Positions 18,572 to 42,529 of a DNA stretch of 64,000 bases are shown piece after piece. Each line of letters opens with the position of its first letter. The stretch's first letter is position 1. The notes below the pieces were generated by a model. It was not told where the DNA came from and made no database searches. It worked only from the letters and a program-made list of their open reading frames with translations. The DNA comes from an uncultured Alphaproteobacteria bacterium. GTDB lineage: Bacteria; Pseudomonadota; Alphaproteobacteria; HIMB59; GCA-002718135. The position numbers and the translations under genes are program-made. The stretch is from the NCBI GenBank assembly GCA_902620285.1, contig CACNHT010000001.1, positions 109,599-173,598 of the forward strand. Direction: 5' to 3'.

Positions 18572-19615
18572 ATGACTCAAAAATACAATATAGCAGTAGC
18601 AGGAGCAACAGGTGCGGTAGGAACAGAAATAGTTCAAATATTAGAGCAAAGGGATTTTCCAATAGACAATTTATATTTACTTGCATCATCAAAATCAAAA
18701 GGCAAAAAAGTAGAGTTTAAAGATAAAGAAATTGTTGTAGAAGACTTATCAGAATTTGATTTTTCAAAAGCTCATATTGGTTTATTTTCACCTGGTGGTA
18801 AAATTTCTGCAGAATATGCACCAAAAGCAGCTGAAAAAGGATGTATTGTTATAGACAATACCTCTCATTTTCGAATGCAACAAAATATTCCTTTAATCGT
18901 TCCTGAAGTAAACGCTAATGCACTTGATGAATTTTTTGATGATGAAAACAGAACTAATATTATTTCAAATCCTAATTGTTCAACTATACAAATGGTTGTT
19001 GCATTAAAACCACTTCATGAAAAAGCAATTATAAACAGAGTTGTTGTATCAACCTATCAAGCTGTTTCCGGAGCAGGTAAAACAGGTATGGATGAATTAT
19101 TTAATCAGACTCAAAATGTTTATGCAAACCAAGAATTAAAAAAAGAAAAGTTCACAAAACAAATTGCGTTTAATGCCATTCCACACATTGGGGCTTTTTT
19201 AGAAAATGGTAATACTGAAGAAGAGCAAAAAATGATTGATGAAACAAAAAAAATTCTAGACGAGGAAATTAATGTTTCAGCAACTTGTGTTAGAACAGCT
19301 GTATTTATTGGCCATTCAGAAGCTGTAAATATAGAGTTTGACTCACCATTAGATGAAAAAGAAGCTAACGAAATATTATCTAACTCTGAAGGTATTTCAG
19401 TAATTGATCATCGAAAAGATGAAGGTTATGTGACTCCTGTTGAAATTGCAGGAGAGGATAAAGTTTATATTAGTAGAATTAGAAATGATCAATCAATAGA
19501 CAATGGTTTGAATTTATGGGTGGTCTCGGATAATTTGCGCAAAGGAGCAGCGCTTAATGCTGTTCAAATTGCTGAGTTAATAATTTCAAAGTATTCAGAA
19601 AAAATAAATATTTAA
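18572..19615 (+). CDS. asd: aspartate-semialdehyde dehydrogenase
   Basis: 347 aa. (V)AGATGAVG N-terminus, NPNCSTIQ active-site Cys, SDNLRKGAALNAVQIAE. Confidence 0.95.
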   Translation: MTQKYNIAVAGATGAVGTEIVQILEQRDFPIDNLYLLASSKSKGKKVEFKDKEIVVEDLSEFDFSKAHIGLFSPGGKISAEYAPKAAEKGCIVIDNTSHFRMQQNIPLIVPEVNANALDEFFDDENRTNIISNPNCSTIQMVVALKPLHEKAIINRVVVSTYQAVSGAGKTGMDELFNQTQNVYANQELKKEKFTKQIAFNAIPHIGAFLENGNTEEEQKMIDETKKILDEEINVSATCVRTAVFIGHSEAVNIEFDSPLDEKEANEILSNSEGISVIDHRKDEGYVTPVEIAGEDKVYISRIRNDQSIDNGLNLWVVSDNLRKGAALNAVQIAELIISKYSEKINI

Positions 19616-19616
19616 T

Positions 19617-19691
19617 TGGCGGTCTCGTAGGGACTCGAACCCCAAATCCATGTTCCGAAGACACGTGTGATATCCATTTCACCACGAGACC
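19617..19691 (-). tRNA. tRNA-Arg (anticodon UCG), CCA encoded
   Basis: Hand-folded cloverleaf from the reverse complement:
- acceptor GGTCTCG/CGAGACC
- D stem GTGA/TCAC, loop with GG and A20
- anticodon stem CGTGT/ACATG, loop CT-TCG-GA
- T stem TGGGG/CCCTA, loop TTCGAGT
- discriminator G plus CCA
Total length 75 nt. Confidence 0.85.
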
Positions 19692-19716
19692 CCTTGGTTT
19701 TTTTAAGTGTTTTTCA

Positions 19717-19741
19717 TTCTACACTAAATTCTACACTAAAA
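19717..19741 (+). repeat. tandem TACACTAAA motif pair (ttcTACACTAAAttcTACACTAAAa) next to the tRNA 5' end
   Basis: The same 9-mer pair recurs at 21156/21167 and 21715/21726. The reverse complement reads TTTAGTGTAGAAT x2, which is extended -10-like (TGnTAGAAT) and faces the tRNA. Confidence 0.8.
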
Positions 19742-19800
19742 ACTATAGTCAACTAACGAATTATTTTGAAATGTTTATAAAAATATGAGAGTTATCGTTT

Positions 19801-21150
19801 ATGATTTCTAAAAACTCTCTTTTTAATTTAATTTTAATCTTATTATTAACTCCTTTTTCATTTTCACATCTGTACGCCCAAGGAGTTTATGATGGTAAAT
19901 ATAATGCTTCATTTGATTTTAAAATGAGTTCTGCATCAGTTTGTCCAAAAACTTTACCTATTGAAATAGAAATTGTAATTACTGATAGTAAGGCAGAAGG
20001 TTATATTTTCAATAACGGTGGAGGAAACGGACACGCATTTTGTAAGTTATATCATAATGGTCCAATAACAGGGTCAGTTGATAGTGATGGTAAAGTAAAA
20101 TTTAAGATTAAACAAAATGATTCACATTCAAGAGAGTACTCATCTTATAAAATTACAGGAGAATTAGAGGGAAGACTAAAACTATACAGTCGTAGTAGTC
20201 AGTATCATCCTACACATAAATTTACATTAGCAAGGGTTGCAGATACTAAACAGGTTACTCAAAATCAAACTACAGAAGAAAATACAACTAAAGAAGAAAC
20301 TACAAATAGTGATAATCAAAACAAAAACCTCTCATCTTCATCTGGTAGTAATACAATTAATATTGAGAATATAAACAGCATAGAAGATGCTCAAACTTAC
20401 ATCAATGAAATTCAAGCAACTATTAATATGTATTTGACTATTAATAATGTGATGAAAACTAATACTAAAAATAAATCAGAAAAAGAAAAATATAATGATA
20501 TAATAAATAAAAAAATATCATCTCTGATTAAACAAAAAGAACTTCTTCAAAATAAACTTAAATCAAGATTTTCTACACCAATTAAACCAACAAACACTAA
20601 TCTAAATGTTTCTGCTTTTAGATCTGCTGAAACATTTCCAAAAATTCCTTTTTACGTTCCAGGTACAGACGAAATAGGTGAAATGTTAGTTATCCCAAGA
20701 GTATCTGATGAGGGTTTTTTAAAATATCAACTTGATTTTTTAGATCCAACTTCTGAATATGATCAAGTAAGAGACACAATTTCAATTTTTCATGAAAATA
20801 TTGATAAAATAATTTTTGGTTTGAAAAAAGTTGATGAATGGACAGTGGTCGCTCAAGAAAACAAAGTTACTAGAAGAGTTTCAAAAACAGCAGTATGTAT
20901 TCCAGAAGGTTCTTGTGAAAATAAAAAACAAGGAGTATCCTCTACTGAAGTAGTTTTCCAAGTTTATGAAGATGGTTCTACATCAGGAAAAATACAAAGA
21001 AATAAAGGAACATTTTCTGTAGGTTATAATTTATCCGTAGAATCTTCTGTACTTTTATCTGCTTATTTAATTTATATGAGAGATATCGGTGCACAAGAGT
21101 TTAAGATTGGTTCAATGAGTGATGAACAGGTCGAGGAATTATTTAATTAG
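19801..21150 (+). CDS. hypothetical secreted/envelope protein (449 aa), cargo of module 1
   Basis: Signal-peptide-like N-terminus (MISKNSLFNLILILLLTPFSFSHLYA/QG), a Cys-containing N-domain, a T/N/E/S-rich low-complexity linker, a K/N-rich probable coiled coil and a C-terminal domain. I recognise no family motif. Confidence 0.75.
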   Translation: MISKNSLFNLILILLLTPFSFSHLYAQGVYDGKYNASFDFKMSSASVCPKTLPIEIEIVITDSKAEGYIFNNGGGNGHAFCKLYHNGPITGSVDSDGKVKFKIKQNDSHSREYSSYKITGELEGRLKLYSRSSQYHPTHKFTLARVADTKQVTQNQTTEENTTKEETTNSDNQNKNLSSSSGSNTINIENINSIEDAQTYINEIQATINMYLTINNVMKTNTKNKSEKEKYNDIINKKISSLIKQKELLQNKLKSRFSTPIKPTNTNLNVSAFRSAETFPKIPFYVPGTDEIGEMLVIPRVSDEGFLKYQLDFLDPTSEYDQVRDTISIFHENIDKIIFGLKKVDEWTVVAQENKVTRRVSKTAVCIPEGSCENKKQGVSSTEVVFQVYEDGSTSGKIQRNKGTFSVGYNLSVESSVLLSAYLIYMRDIGAQEFKIGSMSDEQVEELFN

Positions 21151-21226
21151 AACTTTACACTAAACTTACACTAAACTTTTTTTACGAATTTTGACTGTCT
21201 GTATAGAGAATTAGAAATCATACAAC
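21151..21226 (+). repeat. conserved junction arm, copy A (TACACTAAA x2 ... gaattttgactgtctgtatagagaattagaaatca)
   Basis: Gap-free alignment to 21711-21785 with 7 mismatches over about 71 nt, counted by hand from the first TACACTAAA. It immediately precedes the tRNA-half repeat. Confidence 0.85.
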
Positions 21227-21287
21227 TTCCGAAGACACGTGTGATATCCATTTCACCACGAGACCCCTTGGTTTTTTTAAATGTTTT
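21227..21287 (-). repeat. tRNA-Arg 5'-half repeat, copy 2 (39 nt of tRNA + 22 nt of upstream flank)
   Basis: 60/61 identical to 19653-19713. Starts in the anticodon loop (ttccgaag) and runs through the tRNA 5' end into ccttggttttttta. Confidence 0.9.
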
Positions 21288-21289
21288 AA

Positions 21290-21655
21290 CTAGTAATTAT
21301 TATTTTCATTAACACTTTTTGTACATGCCCAAATAATAAACCATATACTTCCAACCACAAATATACTTGTTACCATGATTGGAACTAACCACCATCCAGA
21401 TCTATTTATATCGTGTAATCTTCTACAAGCAACAGCATAGGTTGGAATTGTAATAGCAATATACGGAATGATAAAAATTAGACTACCAAGAGTTTCAATT
21501 AACTCAATTGGTACTATGGTGAATAATAAAAATGGATAAGCAAACAGAATAATAATAATAAATAATTGAAAATACCAAAATTCTGAACGACTCGCTCTAC
21601 CTGAAAAGGTTGTATATTTTTTTAAACAAGTTGTGATTGCTTCAAAAAAACCCAT
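21290..21655 (-). CDS. DUF805-family small inner-membrane protein, cargo of module 2
   Basis: 121 aa. GRASRSEFW and RRLHD.NRSGWW motifs plus 3-4 TM helices, typical of the DUF805 (YhaH/YhaI-like) family. Confidence 0.8.
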   Translation of the reverse strand: MGFFEAITTCLKKYTTFSGRASRSEFWYFQLFIIIILFAYPFLLFTIVPIELIETLGSLIFIIPYIAITIPTYAVACRRLHDINRSGWWLVPIMVTSIFVVGSIWFIIWACTKSVNENNNY

Positions 21656-21710
21656 ATTATAAATATATTACAAATTTGTTTATTTATAAATTAAAAATTA
21701 ACTTCTAAAA

Positions 21711-21785
21711 ATTCTACACTAAAGTTACACTAAACCTTTTTTATGAATTTTGACTGTTTGTATAGAGAATTTGAAATCAAACTAC
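21711..21785 (+). repeat. conserved junction arm, copy B
   Basis: See 21151-21226. Carries TACACTAAA at 21715 and 21726. Confidence 0.85.
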
Positions 21786-21824
21786 TTCCGAAGACACGTG
21801 TGATATCCATTTCACCACGAGGCC
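21786..21824 (-). repeat. tRNA-Arg 5'-half repeat, copy 3 (distal boundary of the array)
   Basis: 38/39 identical to 19653-19691. The single A-to-G change at 21822 falls in acceptor-stem position 3. The downstream flank (atttattataatt) is unrelated to the ccttgg flank of copies 1 and 2. Confidence 0.9.
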
Positions 21825-21835
21825 ATTTATTATAA

Positions 21836-22762
21836 TTATTTATTATTGAAATTTTCTAATTTTTGAATGAAATCTTTGAGAATAGGATCTCTTTTTATTT
21901 CATAGACAACTTTAATTGGGTGCCTATTTTTATCTGAAGCCCATTTCATATCATCTAAAAGAATTGGAGATGGAATTGTGTTAGTTGGTGCCCAGTCTTC
22001 GTTTAAGACATAACCAACAGCTGCCATATCCCAAATTTCTTTTGACCAACCTTTATGGATACTATTGTACTCTTTAAATCGCATTGCAAGAAATTTACCA
22101 ATTTCACCATGAGGTTCTATGTATTTTTCTATTTCTGGAACTGTTGAAATAAGATGTGAAGTTACTCCCTTACAAGGAACCATAACCAGAGAAACGCCGC
22201 TATCAAATAAAACTTGAGCACCTCCAATATCTTGCTTTAGATTAAATTCCATATTTTGTGGCCAATAAAGCGCGTTACCTCCCAACCAAACTACAACAAT
22301 TTTTTTTATAATTTCTGGCTCTTTTAACAAAGCAGAGGCAACATTTGAAATAGCGCCGATAGCTAGTACGTACAGAGGATCTTCCTCAGAACATTTTAAA
22401 GCACTTTCTATGATATTATCTGCTGCAGGCGAATTAATTGGTTTTTTTTCAAAACCTACATATTTTGTTGAGCCTTTAAAAACAAAATTATTTTTTTTAA
22501 AATTTATTTTTTCTAACAATCTATAGATTTCATCATAACTAAGTTCCATTCCCTTTTCTGGATTATCCGAACGATTATTCATTGAAAAAGGAGCTGCATT
22601 TATACTTTGCACTTCTATTTTTTCTTTTGAAAACAACATTTGCACTAAAGCAAATTGATCATCAATTTCATTGTAAGTATCTGTATCAAGAATTGCTTTA
22701 ATTTTCCCTTTTTTAAACTTAAGTTGTTTTAAAATATCTGAAAAATTTCTTTCTAAAAGCAT
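21836..22762 (-). CDS. inosine/uridine-preferring nucleoside hydrolase family protein
   Basis: 308 aa. N-terminal Asp cluster (I)LDTD...E(I)DD.FAL, typical of the IUNH fold. Confidence 0.75.
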   Translation of the reverse strand: MLLERNFSDILKQLKFKKGKIKAILDTDTYNEIDDQFALVQMLFSKEKIEVQSINAAPFSMNNRSDNPEKGMELSYDEIYRLLEKINFKKNNFVFKGSTKYVGFEKKPINSPAADNIIESALKCSEEDPLYVLAIGAISNVASALLKEPEIIKKIVVVWLGGNALYWPQNMEFNLKQDIGGAQVLFDSGVSLVMVPCKGVTSHLISTVPEIEKYIEPHGEIGKFLAMRFKEYNSIHKGWSKEIWDMAAVGYVLNEDWAPTNTIPSPILLDDMKWASDKNRHPIKVVYEIKRDPILKDFIQKLENFNNK

Positions 22763-39882: not shown

Positions 39883-41205
39883 TTAATTTATTTGATCTAG
39901 AATTTTTAATTGTTCCTTTGATTTTAAACTAATAAATGTTTCAAACTCTATGAGAAAATCATCATAACTCATATTAAAATTTTTCCTAAAAGATTCTCTC
40001 CATCCTTGGTGGATTTCTCCTTCTTCCCTTTTTTCTAATTCAAGTTCGGCAATATCTTCATAAAAATCAAAGAATACTTTTTGATTAGATCCACTTAAAG
40101 AAGCAAGGTACGCTGTTGCCCACATACCACCATCATACTCAAAGCCTTGATCACATTTACTTCGCAGTTTTATGGCATCTTCTTCTCTTTCTACATCTTT
40201 GAGTTTAATTCCTTTTTTTGCACATTTACGAAAGGATTTTAGTGTTTGTTTCATAATTTTTTTATAATCAGCTAAATTATTTTTTCCAATAATATAATAA
40301 CCAAAATATTCTGCCCCACCTTCTTCAATCCACATTGGCATATCATCATTAAATTTATACTGGGCAACACCAAAACGTTTTTCGTCTTCAAAAAAAATTT
40401 TTTTCATATTTTGATAAACATGAAAATATTCATGTGCTACTATTTTTGCAACACTCCACGCTTCATTTTTATAACCCCTCCACCAACATTTATTACCCTC
40501 AATACTTCCTTTTAATGTTTTAGGTGAAAAATAGGCAGACGCTACACATTCTTTGAACCATTTTTTGTTATCACCACCACCTACTTTTAAACATTCTTCA
40601 TTGAAATTCTCCCCACGATTTACTTCACACCAATTTTGAGCAACTTTTTTTAGATTAGATTTCTTTTCATTCCAGATAATAACGTGAGTTTCCGCAATGG
40701 GTTTTTCACCAAGCTCAAGGTAGGAATATTCAAGGGTTTCAATAAATAAACTATGAAGATCATCAGGGACTCCTTTATATTTAGGAAATATAATTTTTTC
40801 CTGCCCATACCAGTCAGGTATTGTATATTCATATTCAACTATATTGACCGAATTGTTATAATTTTTTTCTCCATCATCATTTGTAACAAAGGCAACATTT
40901 TCCCAAATAATTTTGTCGTTAACAGCAAAGGGTTCACACTTTCCTGAAATATTATTTTCTTTTCTCCATTTTTCACAATCTTTAAAAGCTGCTTTTTTTG
41001 CTTTCTCTTCTGATTTTTCACCAATAGTCATTCCGTATTCACATTCACCATCGCTGACTACAACATAAAACGCAGCATGTTGATCTGTTGCCTCTTCTTG
41101 ATATTCTTTAAATGGTTCGTCCATTATCCAACTACATATTTGAGGATTGGCAAATAAATTTTGGGAATTGACTAATAAAAATAAAATTATTAGCAAAATT
41201 TTCAT
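39883..41205 (-). CDS. secreted putative zinc metallopeptidase (HExxH), otherwise uncharacterized
   Basis: 440 aa. Signal peptide [21 protein letters not shown], Cys-rich N-terminal module, HEYFH (HExxH) followed about 40 aa later by EEGGAEY as a candidate third ligand. Confidence 0.65.
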   Translation of the reverse strand: MKILLIILFLLVNSQNLFANPQICSWIMDEPFKEYQEEATDQHAAFYVVVSDGECEYGMTIGEKSEEKAKKAAFKDCEKWRKENNISGKCEPFAVNDKIIWENVAFVTNDDGEKNYNNSVNIVEYEYTIPDWYGQEKIIFPKYKGVPDDLHSLFIETLEYSYLELGEKPIAETHVIIWNEKKSNLKKVAQNWCEVNRGENFNEECLKVGGGDNKKWFKECVASAYFSPKTLKGSIEGNKCWWRGYKNEAWSVAKIVAHEYFHVYQNMKKIFFEDEKRFGVAQYKFNDDMPMWIEEGGAEYFGYYIIGKNNLADYKKIMKQTLKSFRKCAKKGIKLKDVEREEDAIKLRSKCDQGFEYDGGMWATAYLASLSGSNQKVFFDFYEDIAELELEKREEGEIHQGWRESFRKNFNMSYDDFLIEFETFISLKSKEQLKILDQIN

Positions 41206-41864
41206 TTTATGATTAGTAAATTAATCTCTATAATTTTAATTAAGTACTCAACAAGATCAGTTTGCATATCAACTGTGAATTTATTTTTATCTTTTGATCC
41301 CATAGCCAATATTAGACTATCTTCACGAAATTTAACTTTTAATAAAATATATGATTTTATCGTTGCTGATTTATTAGGAAAAAATAAAAGTAAACCTTTA
41401 GGATTTTGATTTAAATTTGTAACCATTTTGTTTTTAAAATAACTATTTGCAATTTTAATATCAAGTTGTGATAAGTTTTCTGCTCTAATATTTTCATTTG
41501 TAACAAAACAATTCATTTCATCACAACCTAAAATTGTTTTAAGATCATTTTTAATTAAGCTTATTAATTTTTGTAAACTTTTTACATTTAGAATTCTAAT
41601 TGTAGATTTTAGAATTCTTTTTTGAGCATTTAAATGACTTTTTCCTGCAAGTAGTACTTTTGTCATTTGATTTTGTAGATCTATATTTTGTTGCGATATC
41701 TTTTTATATCTATAAGCATCTAAATCGACAACCTTATCAGAACTATTATCGAGGGTGGGAAAATTTAGTTCATTAACTAATTCTGAATTTTTAATAAAAA
41801 AATTTTTATTTTTTTTTAAAAAATTTATTATTTGTTTTTCACTAATTTCATCTTCATGCGCCAT
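41202..41864 (-). CDS. DUF484 (YigA-like) family protein
   Basis: The N-terminus ...I..FL..N..FF..N.EL(V/L)..L.(F/L)P is typical of DUF484. ATG 41864 is preferred over 41906 because it sits 5 nt after the tal stop instead of overlapping it by 37 nt. Confidence 0.65.
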   Translation of the reverse strand: MAHEDEISEKQIINFLKKNKNFFIKNSELVNELNFPTLDNSSDKVVDLDAYRYKKISQQNIDLQNQMTKVLLAGKSHLNAQKRILKSTIRILNVKSLQKLISLIKNDLKTILGCDEMNCFVTNENIRAENLSQLDIKIANSYFKNKMVTNLNQNPKGLLLFFPNKSATIKSYILLKVKFREDSLILAMGSKDKNKFTVDMQTDLVEYLIKIIEINLLIIK

Positions 41865-41869
41865 GATGA

Positions 41870-42529
41870 TTATTTTGGCAAGATTTGCTGTCCTGTTTTT
41901 GCCCAATCATCAAGAAATGCTTTCAGCCCTTTATCTGTGAGAGGATGTTTATATAATTCGTGAATAACTTTAGGTGGTAGAGTTGAAACATGGGCACCAA
42001 TCACAGCTGCATCAATAAGATGTTGAGTGTTTCTTACCGAAGCAACTAATACTTCAGTATCAAATCCATAATTTTCATACATTATTACTATATCTGAAAT
42101 TAGATCCATACCTTTTTCACCAATATCATCGAGTCTTCCCACAAATGGAGAAATAAATGTTGCACCAACCTTAGCGGCTAGTAATGCTTGAGCAGCACTA
42201 AAACACAACGTTACATTTACCATGATATTTTTTTCTCTAAGAGCTTTGCATGTCTGAAGACCAGCAGGTGTGAGAGGAACTTTTACAGCAACATTCTTAG
42301 CTAATGATGCTAAGTATTCACCTTCTTCAAGCATCTTGTTATATTCCGTTGCTGTCACTTCTGCACTTACTGGACCAGATACTATGGAACAAATTGTTTT
42401 AATTGTTTCACCCATATCTTTACCACTTTTTGCAATTAGAGATGGGTTTGTCGTAACACCGTCTATTAATCCACTAGGCATTAACTCTTCGATTTCATGT
42501 ATATCGGCAGTGTCTATAAAAAATTTCAT
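41870..42529 (-). CDS. tal: transaldolase / fructose-6-phosphate aldolase family (short type)
   Basis: 219 aa. MKFF(I/L)DTA....I........(I)DGVTTNPSL(I), (V)K(V/I)P.T..G Schiff-base Lys region. Confidence 0.9.

What the first reader, a model, noticed from the sequence alone, without database searches (positions are those of the whole stretch)
19617..21824. Tandem array of two integrase-less single-gene cassettes bounded by direct repeats of half a tRNA-Arg gene
**Seen directly.**
- An intact tRNA-Arg(UCG) lies on the minus strand at 19617-19691.
- It is followed by two further direct copies of the same 39-nt segment, from the anticodon loop to the tRNA 5' end.
- The copy at 21227-21265 is 39/39 identical. 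The copy at 21786-21824 is 38/39 identical.
- Copies 1 and 2 also share the next 22 nt (ccttggttttttta...).
- Copies 2 and 3 are each preceded by a ~71-nt arm with only 7 mismatches.

**What this delimits.** Two modules of about 1.57 kb and 0.56 kb. Each carries one envelope-type gene: a 449-aa secreted protein and a DUF805 membrane protein.

**Interpretation.** Repeated partial tRNA sequence is the classical footprint of site-specific integration (attL/attR). Two nested footprints with near-identical arms imply serial integration of related elements at one attB. Yet neither module, nor anything else in the 64 kb, encodes an integrase, excisionase or phage protein. So these are either cargo-only cassettes mobilised in trans, conceptually like integron cassettes or the tRNA-flanked cargo arrays reported for Prochlorococcus tycheposons, or highly reduced relics. 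Either way the locus is a defined hot spot for gene gain in an otherwise streamlined core region.
Basis: partly seen in the sequence, partly recalled or inferred. Interest (0 to 1): 0.8.

Follow-up and report, generated by a model that had tools for sequence, protein, structure and literature searches.

The report
Integrase-less gene cassettes at tRNA-Arg
Two tiny single-gene DNA modules sit in tandem next to a tRNA-Arg gene of a SAR11/HIMB59-like marine bacterium; they carry the attachment-site arms of a newly identified family of small integrating elements but no recombinase of their own, and at least one has recently moved between distantly related genomes.

Summary
An intact tRNA-Arg(UCG) is followed by two more copies of its 39-nt 5' half, 39/39 and 38/39 identical. 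These delimit modules of 1,574 bp (449-aa secreted protein) and 559 bp (DUF805).

- 19 of 79 related genomes have the precise empty site.
- The DUF805 module occurs alone next to the tRNA in at least six metagenome contigs.
- The p449 module occurs alone in at least four other chromosomal backgrounds. It is 98.7-99.7% identical there, while the adjacent core genes are only 70-93% identical.
- The same arms bound at least six unrelated cargo sets.
- Each arm carries a TACACTAAA doublet at fixed spacing.
- The same design occurs in complete 7-8 kb elements encoding a divergent ~390-aa tyrosine integrase plus a resolvase. One integrase gene (L122) lies beside an intact attP containing the exact window core.
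- One 614-nt contig (559 + 55) has the junction expected of an excised circle or a tandem copy of the DUF805 module.
- The window itself encodes no recombinase.

Best reading: these are CIME-like miniature derivatives of that element family, integrated one after the other. The p449 module is probably mobilised in trans; the DUF805 module is partly decayed. The kind is known (tycheposon arrays, CIMEs). The family, the targeting of the tRNA 5' half and the cassette-like scale are new.

The parts
18572..19615 (+). asd (aspartate-semialdehyde dehydrogenase). Conserved left flank of the attB.
   Evidence: Pfam Semialdhyde_dhC at 4e-54 and Semialdhyde_dh at 2e-34. It was used to fetch the 79 syntenic loci.
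19617..19691 (-). Intact tRNA-Arg(UCG). It acts as the attR of module B and as the regenerated attB. Under the model, the 3' half is host-derived and the 5' half plus upstream region were re-supplied by the element.
   Evidence: ARAGORN. The identical tRNA is present at the empty sites of relatives.
19653..19691 (-). Core copy 1: the tRNA 5' half, from the anticodon loop to the 5' end.
19692..19745 (.). P' arm of module B: CCTTGGTTTTTTTAAGTG... plus a TCTACACTAAA doublet at 19720 and 19732.
   Evidence: The same P' arm with different cargo occurs in L091. It is in register with the P' arm of the integrase-linked attP in L122. L093 carries the same TCTACACTAAA 11-mer twice in each arm.
19801..21150 (+). 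Cargo B: a 449-aa putative secreted or envelope protein (p449).
   Evidence: ORF; no Pfam family. It belongs to a large marine family of 255 hits, some with the PG-binding domain PF01471. The identical protein is found in 8-9 metagenome contigs.
21137..21226 (.). P arm of module B, with a TACACTAAA doublet at 21156 and 21167 and a conserved TTTGACTGT motif.
   Evidence: The doublet lies at -72/-61 from the core, as in L077, L091 and L122.
21227..21265 (-). Core copy 2 (39/39). A hybrid junction, arm(B)-core-P'(A), formally equivalent to an attP.
21266..21289 (.). Truncated P' arm of module A (CCTTGGTTTTTTTAAATGTTTT). The doublet is missing because the DUF805 stop codon follows directly.
   Evidence: The same truncation is present in all single-module A contigs.
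21290..21655 (-). Cargo A: a 121-aa DUF805 membrane protein, co-oriented with the tRNA.
   Evidence: Pfam DUF805 at 2.7e-25.
21696..21785 (.). P arm of module A, with a TACACTAAA doublet at 21715 and 21726.
21786..21824 (-). Core copy 3 (38/39). This is the orphaned original host 5' half, the attL of module A.
   Evidence: It is followed by the same flank that adjoins the intact tRNA at the empty sites of relatives.
21825..21858 (-). Native upstream flank of the tRNA with a promoter-like site (TAGAAA-18-TATAAT). It now points through the orphan half into module A.
   Evidence: Best promoter-like match in the region, 10/12. This is a consensus match only, not shown to function.
21836..22762 (-). 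Nucleoside hydrolase. Conserved right flank of the attB in this lineage.
   Evidence: Pfam IU_nuc_hydro at 1.9e-19. It lies 14 nt from the tRNA in 19 relatives.

Best explanation
**What the locus is.** It is the chromosomal attachment site (attB, the tRNA-Arg-UCG gene) of a family of small integrative elements found in SAR11/HIMB59-like marine bacteria.

**Complete elements.** Complete members are about 7-8 kb. They encode a divergent ~390-aa tyrosine integrase and a small serine recombinase. Their attP has this order:
- a P arm with a direct doublet of a 9-11-mer (here TACACTAAA);
- about 50 nt of spacer;
- the 5' half of the tRNA, ending in the anticodon loop (the crossover region);
- a CCTTGGTTTTTTT-type stretch;
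- a second doublet (the P' arm).

Integration leaves the host 5' half orphaned at the far end. The element-borne 5' half and upstream region rebuild the tRNA, which then remains a competent attB.

**The two window modules.** They are integrase-less derivatives, like CIMEs (cis-mobilizable elements: att sites kept, recombination genes lost). They keep the att arms around a single cargo gene.
- Module A (DUF805) integrated first.
- Module B (p449) integrated later into the regenerated tRNA and pushed A outward.

**How they move.**
- Module B has complete arms and is most likely moved as a small circle by an integrase supplied in trans by a complete element.
- Module A has lost its P' doublet. 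It is probably a decaying relic that persists as a presence/absence polymorphism within one species.

**Shown versus inferred.**
- Shown: the anatomy, the empty and single-module states, the cross-lineage spread of B, the existence of cognate-type integrases with the same attP design, and the absence of a recombinase in the window.
- Inferred: that the doublets are integrase arm-binding sites, that the crossover lies in the anticodon loop, and that mobilisation is in trans.
For: **Anatomy.**

**Empty site.** 19 of 79 species-level relatives have the precise empty site.

**Modules occur singly.**
- Module A alone sits between the intact tRNA and the NH flank in L104-L107, L110 and L113.
- Module B occurs alone in other backgrounds (L096, L097/L086, L112). 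It is 99.6-99.7% identical there (98.7% in a noisy assembly). The adjoining asd is 85-93% identical, and the DUF924-UDG-MFS flank only 70.5%. The identity break falls at the tRNA or core.

**Shared arms, different cargo.**
- The type-1 arm bounds unrelated cargo: an AdhesinE-like protein plus a 188-aa protein, a SHOCT protein, a 289-aa protein and a 92-aa membrane protein.
- In all 13 metagenome hits the arm is followed in register by the tRNA 5' half.

**Complete elements.**
- L093 is a complete 7.2-kb element: 5'-half repeat, a TCTACACTAAA doublet on both arms, integrase beside the P' arm and the intact tRNA.
- L122 has an integrase beside an attP with the exact window core and in-register doublets.
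- L095 and L118 are circularly permuted elements with an intact attP.
- The doublet sequence differs between integrase lineages (L093, L094, L095, L118).

**The integrase is a tyrosine recombinase.** PHROG phrog_1 at 4e-17; R232, K263, R337 and Y369 are invariant.

**Decay series in relatives.** 25-aa integrase C-terminal remnants occur in type-2 modules. L088 matches the predicted integrated relic in the window's own chromosomal background.

**Circle or tandem junction.** L108 is 614 nt = 559 + 55-nt terminal overlap, with an arm(A)-core-P'(A) junction.

**No recombinase in the window.**
Against: - No complete element with exactly the type-1 arms (TACACTAAA doublets plus the GTCTGTATAGAGAATTAGAAATCA arm) was found next to an integrase. 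L122, L082 and L093 are sibling specificities.
- No integrase is present in the 64-kb window, and the rest of the 205-kb source contig could not be read. Trans supply is therefore inferred.
- Module A lacks the P' doublet, yet it is the module with the circle/tandem junction (L108). RecA recombination between the 39-61-nt direct repeats could produce that junction without any integrase.
- L108 is a single short-read contig.
- Homologous recombination with crossovers inside the fully conserved tRNA and the 39-nt core would give the same end products as site-specific integration. The sequence data cannot distinguish the two.
- No member of the family was found in IMG/VR or in phage records. The vehicle for cell-to-cell transfer is therefore unknown.
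Confidence: 0.68

Rival explanations
1. The modules are immobile relics spread by homologous recombination. Both are leftovers of complete elements whose backbone and integrase were deleted in place. Their present distribution (presence or absence, single or tandem, different backgrounds) comes from RecA-dependent recombination of incoming chromosomal DNA. The invariant tRNA and the 39-nt core serve as the homology. No integrase acts on them today.
For: - Type-2 relatives clearly are deletion relics, with integrase C-terminal remnants.
- Module A has lost its P' doublet and is seen only in the NH background.
- No recombinase is present in the window.
- Only 1 of the 79 genomic loci has a second half-tRNA copy.
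- Direct repeats of 39-61 nt can support rare RecA events, including the L108 junction.
Against: - Module B is 98.7-99.7% identical in backgrounds whose adjacent core genes are 70-93% identical. In every contig the break is exactly at the tRNA or core. This would need crossovers confined to 75 nt and 39 nt each time.
- At least six unrelated cargo sets are bounded by the same two arms with doublets at fixed spacing and no integrase remnant. That is easier to explain if arms plus cargo form the transferred unit.
- Integrase-bearing elements with the same core are present in the same ocean metagenome collections.
Confidence: 0.22
2. The repeats arose from a local tandem duplication of the region upstream of the tRNA. 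Unequal crossing-over or replication slippage made them, and the intervening genes are ordinary chromosomal genes.
For: The repeats are direct, and arms A and B are similar.
Against: - The two modules share no sequence apart from the arms.
- Each occurs alone at the same site in other genomes.
- The empty site is common.
- The same arm occurs with other cargo and next to integrases.
Confidence: 0.02
3. The tandem array is an assembly artefact. It would be a chimeric join of reads from different cells, collapsed or expanded at the 39-nt repeat.
For: - The arm(B)-core-P'(A) junction was seen only in the window.
- Many metagenome contigs break at these repeats.
Against: - Both flanking junctions of each module are confirmed independently in several metagenome contigs.
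- The array lies in a 205-kb contig.
- The hybrid junction is exactly the product expected from integration of B into a genome carrying A, and that state is directly observed.
- L091 shows an independent array of the same kind.
Confidence: 0.03

Closest known systems
Tycheposon islands of Prochlorococcus (Hackl et al., bioRxiv 10.1101/2020.12.28.424599)
   Same: - Integration at specific tRNA genes of a streamlined marine bacterium.
- Elements flanked by partial tRNA copies.
- Tandem elements separated only by a partial tRNA. Newer arrivals push older ones into the island.
- Degenerate remnants are present.
   Different: - The modules here are far smaller (0.56 and 1.57 kb, one gene each).
- They have clean att arms and no hallmark genes.
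- The integrase family was not compared with the tycheposon recombinases, so relatedness is unknown.
- The complete elements carry a small resolvase and no recognisable replication module.
- The host is an alphaproteobacterium.
CIMEs (cis-mobilizable elements) and site-specific accretion at tRNA genes, as for ICESt1-type elements (review PMC5704250)
   Same: - By definition, elements that have lost their integration and transfer genes but keep attL and attR.
[quoted passage not shown]
- This is structurally what the window shows.
   Different: - CIMEs derive from conjugative or mobilisable elements of Firmicutes. They move in cis after accretion with an ICE.
- No conjugation genes are present here.
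- The target is the 5' half of the tRNA rather than the 3' end.
- Mobilisation appears to be of the mini-element alone.
Partial-tRNA-bounded 'gene cassettes' in SAR11 genomic islands (Microbiome 2025, PMC11796062)
   Same: That paper reports no canonical mobile elements in SAR11 islands. Four islands have a partial repeat of the adjacent tRNA, which the authors take to mark insertion of a gene cassette.
   Different: - As far as the searched text shows, that work gives no cognate integrase, arm sites, serial integration order or cross-lineage transfer.
- It concerns Pelagibacter genomospecies, not this HIMB59-like lineage.
Integron gene cassettes
   Same: - Promoter-less or single-gene units without their own recombinase.
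- Inserted one after the other at one site by a tyrosine recombinase supplied from elsewhere.
- The newest unit lies next to the insertion point.
- Cargo is mostly co-oriented with an upstream promoter.
   Different: - No attC-type imperfect palindrome and no adjacent IntI, attI or Pc.
- The sites are lambda-like att sites with arm doublets and a tRNA core.
- The recombinase sits on a separate mobile element.
VEIMEs, marine virion-encapsidated integrative mobile elements (Eppley et al. 2022, PMC9618062)
   Same: - Small marine integrative elements.
- Several subgroups carry both a tyrosine integrase and a serine recombinase.
- They occur integrated in Pelagibacter and other Alphaproteobacteria.
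- They are a plausible identity for the complete parent elements (L093, L095, L118).
   Different: - Membership could not be tested because the VEIME sequences are not held.
- No relative of the integrase was found in IMG/VR contigs.
- No packaging genes were recognised.

Membership tests
Site-specific integrative element footprint at a tRNA gene (attL/attR) | Direct repeats of a tRNA segment bound the insert, with one intact tRNA at one end | tested here: met
   Three copies of the 39-nt 5' half. The intact tRNA is at 19617-19691.
Site-specific integrative element footprint at a tRNA gene (attL/attR) | A precise empty site exists in related genomes | tested here: met
   19 of 79 relatives have asd-tRNA-14 nt-NH, with the flank identical to that after copy 3.
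Site-specific integrative element footprint at a tRNA gene (attL/attR) | A cognate recombinase is encoded within the element | tested here: not met
   No integrase or resolvase is present in either module or anywhere in the 64 kb. Related complete elements do encode one.
Site-specific integrative element footprint at a tRNA gene (attL/attR) | Conserved arm sequences with repeated putative recombinase-binding sites flank the core | tested here: met
   TACACTAAA doublets lie at -72/-61 on the P arm and at about +29/+41 on the P' arm. They are shared with L077, L091, L093 and L122, and the doublet sequence differs between integrase lineages. Binding itself was not tested.
CIME (cis-mobilizable element) | Flanked by attL and attR while lacking recombination and transfer genes | tested here: met
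   The definition is taken from PMC5704250.
CIME (cis-mobilizable element) | Derived by deletion from an integrase-bearing element | tested here: inconclusive
   Type-2 relatives carry a 25-aa integrase remnant. The window modules show no remnant.
CIME (cis-mobilizable element) | Mobilised in cis after accretion with a functional element of conjugative type | tested here: not met
   No functional element adjoins the modules and no conjugation genes are present. Module B is found as a single unit in other genomes.
Tycheposon | Tyrosine or large serine recombinase of the tycheposon-specific lineage, facing inward at one end | not tested
   The window modules have no recombinase. The parent family's integrase was not compared with tycheposon recombinases because no reference sequences are held.
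Tycheposon | Integration at an island-associated tRNA, with partial tRNA repeats and tandem arrangement | tested here: met
   The feature is as described.
Tycheposon | Hallmark replication module (primase, helicase or polymerase) | tested here: not met
   None is present in the window modules. None was recognised in the complete elements L093, L094 and L118 by PHROGs or by the precomputed Pfam hits.
Integron cassette | attC recombination site (imperfect inverted repeat) at the cassette end | tested here: not met
   No local inverted repeat lies at the junctions. The junctions are tRNA-half plus arm sites.
Integron cassette | Adjacent intI, attI and Pc platform | tested here: not met
   The window has no integrase. 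A tRNA promoter-like site upstream of the array is only an analogy.
Tyrosine recombinase (parent-element integrase P0001-P0035) | Catalytic R...K...(H)xxR...Y residues and similarity to integrase profiles | tested here: met
   - R232, K263, R337 and Y369 are invariant in 11 members.
- PHROG phrog_1 integrase at 4e-17.
- Pfam PF00589 and PF13102 hits are weak.
- The usual histidines are replaced.
VEIME / phage satellite (parent elements) | Found encapsidated in virus particles, with satellite hallmark genes | not testable with these tools
The co-occurrence of a tyrosine integrase with a serine recombinase matches some VEIME subgroups.

The most novel reading that the evidence does not exclude
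A tRNA-anchored gene-cassette system operates in streamlined marine Alphaproteobacteria.
- Single-gene minicircles of 0.5-1.6 kb consist only of cargo plus two att arms.
- A dedicated integrase carried on separate 7-8 kb satellite-like elements captures and releases them at tRNA-Arg(UCG).
- They stack in order of arrival.
- Most are transcribed from the displaced tRNA promoter.
- They cross genus-level boundaries.

This would be a functional analogue of integrons, built from lambda-type att sites.
Probability: 0.27. Interest if true: 0.82.

Novelty: new variant of a known kind. Interest (0 to 1): 0.62.

Why it matters
SAR11-type bacteria are among the most abundant cells in the ocean. They are usually described as lacking mobile elements, yet they have large flexible gene pools. 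How single genes enter and leave their islands is an open question.

This locus gives a concrete and testable mechanism:
- a defined attB;
- a defined attP design with arm doublets;
- a candidate integrase family;
- a natural series of states: empty site, one module, two modules, complete element, decayed relic;
- a module caught in several deeply diverged genomes.

The cargo is dominated by small secreted or membrane proteins. This is the class expected to matter for phage and grazer interactions.

If trans-mobilisation is confirmed, it would extend the tycheposon idea to heterotrophic picoplankton and to a cassette-like scale.

Tried and rejected
- **Phage origin.** The junction gave no match in 50,697 phage records with blastn. 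Exact core, arm and combined patterns gave no IMG/VR contig. The integrase profile gave no IMG/VR relative. tblastn against phages found only ~25% identical Helicobacter and Streptococcus phage integrases and no pelagiphage. A pelagiphage attP origin is therefore not supported.
- **Solved structures.** A PDB sequence search with the integrase found nothing.
- **Complete type-1 element.** I looked for an integrase directly beside a type-1 arm. The closest cases are L122 (same core, sibling doublets) and L082/L114 (diverged 5' half plus an element-borne tRNA).
- **Integrase remnants in the window modules.** None were found (tblastn with word size 2, and a profile search).
- **The L053/L047 'foreign tRNA' structures.** I tried to explain them by a single integration and failed. 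They make sense only as decayed type-2 elements that carry their own tRNA-Arg and split the host gene. L088 confirms this.
- **P' doublet spacing.** My script for P' doublet spacing had an offset error. The P' spacing cited here comes from the coordinates and the alignment.
- **Cargo structure.** No structure prediction of the cargo was attempted, because it would not bear on the mechanism.


Full report
**1. The observation**

ARAGORN finds a single tRNA in the window: tRNA-Arg(tcg), on the minus strand at 19617-19691. Its 5' half (19653-19691, from the anticodon loop to the tRNA 5' end) recurs as a direct repeat. The copy at 21227-21265 is 39/39 identical and the copy at 21786-21824 is 38/39. 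The window has three matches where dinucleotide shuffles give none.

Copies 1 and 2 share the next ~22 nt (ccttggttttttta...). Copies 2 and 3 are preceded by related ~90-nt arms. The repeats delimit 1,574 bp and 559 bp.
- The first segment holds a 449-aa ORF with a signal-like N-terminus and no Pfam family.
- The second holds a 121-aa DUF805 protein, E = 2.7e-25.
- The flanks are asd and an IU-type nucleoside hydrolase, NH.

All six TACACTAAA 9-mers of the 64-kb window lie here, as three same-strand doublets 11-12 nt apart. One doublet is in each arm and one is beyond copy 1. About 0.99 are expected, and 0 of 100 shuffles reach six.

The window encodes no recombinase. All 57 ORFs of 150 aa or more are housekeeping genes by Pfam. 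A profile of the cognate integrase family, and the resolvases, find nothing in six-frame translation (best E about 0.5).

**2. Orientation of the footprint**

The repeated part is the 5' half of the tRNA, not the 3' end that most tRNA-targeting elements duplicate. Read in the tRNA's direction, the order is:
- native upstream flank;
- orphan 5' half (copy 3);
- arm A, DUF805, short P'(A);
- 5' half (copy 2);
- arm B, p449 (opposite strand), P'(B) with doublet;
- complete tRNA;
- asd.

This is what follows if an attP of the form P'-[5' half]-arm recombines with the tRNA in or near the anticodon loop. The host 5' half is left at the far end. The element's 5' half and upstream DNA rebuild the gene, and the rebuilt tRNA is again a target. 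A second integration then gives the hybrid arm(B)-core-P'(A) junction seen at copy 2.

**3. Comparative evidence from genomes**

The asd protein was used to fetch 79 syntenic loci from species-representative genomes. Most are marine single-cell genomes. Some titles read HIMB59, Pelagibacterales or Pelagibacteraceae.
- 19 loci have the exact empty site. The tRNA is followed after 14 nt by NH, with the same flank that follows copy 3 in the window.
- In other lineages DUF218 or DUF924 comes next, and 17 have genes between asd and the tRNA. The site is a general variation hot spot.
- None of the 79 contains p449 or this DUF805 gene.
- L077 has a single 1,143-bp module with a 95% identical arm, a half-tRNA with two mismatches and the ccttgg... 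flank. Its cargo is different: an Adhesin_E-domain protein and a 188-aa protein, both with signal-like N-termini.

**4. Evidence from metagenomes**

A pattern conserved between arm variants found 13 metagenome contigs. In every one the arm is followed in register by the tRNA 5' half.

At least three arm types exist. Cargo differs from module to module:
- a SHOCT-domain protein;
- a 289-aa protein;
- a methyltransferase-like protein;
- a 92-aa membrane protein;
- several pairs of small secreted proteins.

L091 is another tandem array. It has the same P' arm as window module B but different cargo. In about nine of eleven cargo sets the genes point the same way as the tRNA.

**5. The modules are independent units, and module B is mobile**

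Exact-protein look-ups give these states.
- The DUF805 module occurs alone, between the intact tRNA and the NH flank, in L104-L107, L110 and L113.
- The p449 module occurs alone in other backgrounds. Its right flank is the DUF218 lineage in L097/L086, the L066/L057-type lineage in L096, and a much more distant lineage in L112.

Module B is 99.6-99.7% identical to the window in L096-L100. The asd sequence touching the tRNA is only 93.1, 92.9, 89.7 and 85.3% identical. In L112 the module is 98.7% identical in a noisy assembly, next to 2.65 kb of core genes that are 70.5% identical. The break lies at the tRNA or core each time. Module B has therefore moved recently between diverged genomes as a unit bounded by the att sites.

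The window array is the predicted sum: A first (a state observed), then B inserted at the regenerated tRNA. The one mismatch is in the oldest, orphan copy, which fits this order.

**6. The recombinase**

*L082.* This contig carries an arm, the short sequence CTTCCGAAG, a diverged copy of the 5' half and a second doublet. This attP-like site lies next to a cargo ORF, a complete but divergent tRNA-Arg and a 326-aa partial ORF with weak integrase hits.

*The family.* A database search with that ORF gave 35 proteins of about 390 aa, all from marine samples.
- PHROGs call them integrase (phrog_1, 4e-17).
- R232, K263, R337 and Y369 are invariant.
- Similarity to annotated phage integrases is only about 25%.

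*L093.* This is a complete integrated element of 7.2 kb in a single-cell genome. It has a 41-nt 5' half of tRNA-Arg(TCG), then an arm with TCTACACTAAA twice, then small ORFs and a resolvase, then the integrase, then the same doublet, then the intact tRNA. That is the window's design, and its doublet is the 11-mer of the window's P'(B) arm.

*L095 and L118.* These are circularly permuted elements with an intact attP. The doublet sequence differs between integrase lineages, as expected of arm-type binding sites.

*L122.* This contig has an integrase (P0006) followed by a doublet at -71/-60, the exact 38-nt window core, ACTTGATTTTTTTA and a second doublet. All of these are in register with the window junctions.

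*L083.* This contig shows a resolvase-bearing element integrated at the window-type core.

So cognate-type integrases with the same attP design exist in the same waters, though not in the window.

**7. Decay series**

Type-2 modules (L047, L053, L084, L088-L090) retain about 25 codons of the integrase 3' end next to the arm. They also carry an element-borne tRNA-Arg.

L088 has exactly the predicted integrated form in the window's own background: host 3' half + core + diverged 5' half + doublet, cargo, element tRNA, integrase remnant, arm, host 5' half, NH flank. So deletion relics do form at this site.

The window modules show no integrase remnant. Module A has lost its P' doublet and is seen only in the NH background. 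Module B has both doublets and is seen in at least four other backgrounds. This correlation (n = 2) suggests that B is still mobilisable and A is not.

**8. Circular or tandem junction**

L108 is a 614-nt Tara contig with an exact 55-nt terminal overlap, and 614 - 55 = 559, the length of module A. Its junction is arm(A)-core-P'(A). With k = 55, longer than the 39-nt core, the junction k-mers must come from real reads. This means either a circularised module or an A-A tandem.

It is a single contig. RecA recombination between the direct repeats could also produce it, so I treat it as supportive, not decisive.

**9. Mechanism and rivals**

*Best explanation (0.68).* The modules are CIME-like miniature derivatives of a tRNA-Arg(UCG)-specific integrative element family, integrated one after the other. 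B is mobilised in trans by an integrase from a complete element.

*Main rival (0.22).* The modules are relics moved only by homologous recombination through the invariant tRNA and core. It gives the same end products. It is disfavoured by the sharp, repeated identity breaks and by the many cargo sets that share intact arms.

*Minor rivals.* A local duplication (0.02) and an assembly artefact (0.03) are contradicted by the single-module states and the independent junction contigs.

*An inference only.* The native promoter-like site (TAGAAA-18-TATAAT, 10/12) stays with the orphan half and points into co-oriented cargo. Cargo may therefore ride on the tRNA promoter.

**10. Relation to what is known**

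- *Tycheposons.* The tycheposon study describes tandem elements separated by partial tRNAs, older ones pushed inward, and degenerate remnants.
- *CIMEs.* They are defined as att-flanked elements without recombination genes that form tandems by accretion.
- *SAR11 islands.* A SAR11 study notes partial tRNA repeats marking 'gene cassette' insertion in islands without canonical mobile elements.
- *VEIMEs.* They include marine elements with both a tyrosine integrase and a serine recombinase in Pelagibacter and other Alphaproteobacteria. They may include the parent elements.

The kind is therefore known. Four things are new here:
- the integrase family and its attP design;
- the use of the tRNA 5' half (or, in type-2 elements, replacement of the tRNA);
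- the very small single-gene scale with clean arms;
- direct evidence that one such module has crossed deep lineage boundaries.

The modules are not integron cassettes. They have no attC-type palindrome and no intI platform. Membership of the tycheposon or VEIME families could not be tested.

**11. Verdict**

It is a new variant of a known kind. Interest is 0.62.

Noticed in passing
L088 (whole contig), L053 4918-5163, L047 11640-12411, L082 753-827, L114 2375-2449: One branch of the element family has an attP with a diverged (non-functional) copy of the tRNA 5' half and carries its own complete, divergent tRNA-Arg(TCG) next to the integrase. Integration splits the host tRNA gene, and the element's tRNA replaces it. 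L088 shows the full integrated form.
   Followed up: partly
L118 7869-8250, L119 4584-4799, L095 1245-1560: These are circularly permuted complete elements with an intact attP. In L118 and L119 the attP carries the 3' half of a tRNA-Arg with a degenerate 5' part. In L095 it carries the 5' half. The family has therefore switched which tRNA half it duplicates.
   Followed up: no
L094 6748-6930: An integrase of the same family is followed by a TGTTGTGCA doublet and then by a tRNA- or tmRNA-like 3' end (GGGGGTCGAAGGTTCGAATCCTTTCTCCCCGACCA). ARAGORN does not call it. It may be a different target gene.
   Followed up: no
L001-L079, region between asd and the tRNA: In 17 of the 79 related genomes, one or more genes (up to ~1.7 kb) lie between asd and the tRNA, on the 3' side. 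No tRNA repeat was detected there. This looks like a second, unexplained mode of variation at the same tRNA. L034, L039, L048, L056 and L073 also have 1,331 nt of extra DNA before a 67%-identical NH.
   Followed up: partly
L093 4233-4273, 5720-5760, 8381-8421: Three copies of a ~41-nt palindromic motif (ATTACCCTGTACTGCAGCC.CAACAGGGTAAT) lie inside the complete element. They may be terminators or regulatory or resolvase sites.
   Followed up: no
window 19801-21150: p449 belongs to a large marine protein family (255 hits). The C-terminal ~60% is conserved and the N-terminal part is exchangeable; some relatives have a peptidoglycan-binding domain there. Most homologues sit on 1.5-2.5 kb contigs, as if they too lie between assembly-breaking repeats.
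   Followed up: partly
modules in window, L047, L077, L080/L085, L088-L092: Cargo is dominated by small proteins with signal-like or membrane N-termini. In about 9 of 11 sets the genes are co-oriented with the tRNA, downstream of the displaced tRNA promoter.
   Followed up: partly
window 41202-41906: A DUF484 gene lies here without a recognisable recombinase gene beside it. Its neighbours are an M61-like peptidase gene and a transaldolase gene. From memory, DUF484 often sits next to xerC in proteobacteria.
   Followed up: no
L108 (614 nt): The contig length is exactly the module A length plus 55 nt of terminal overlap. If the assembler output a closed cycle, the circular or tandem junction may have outnumbered the chromosomal junctions in that Tara sample.
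   Followed up: partly
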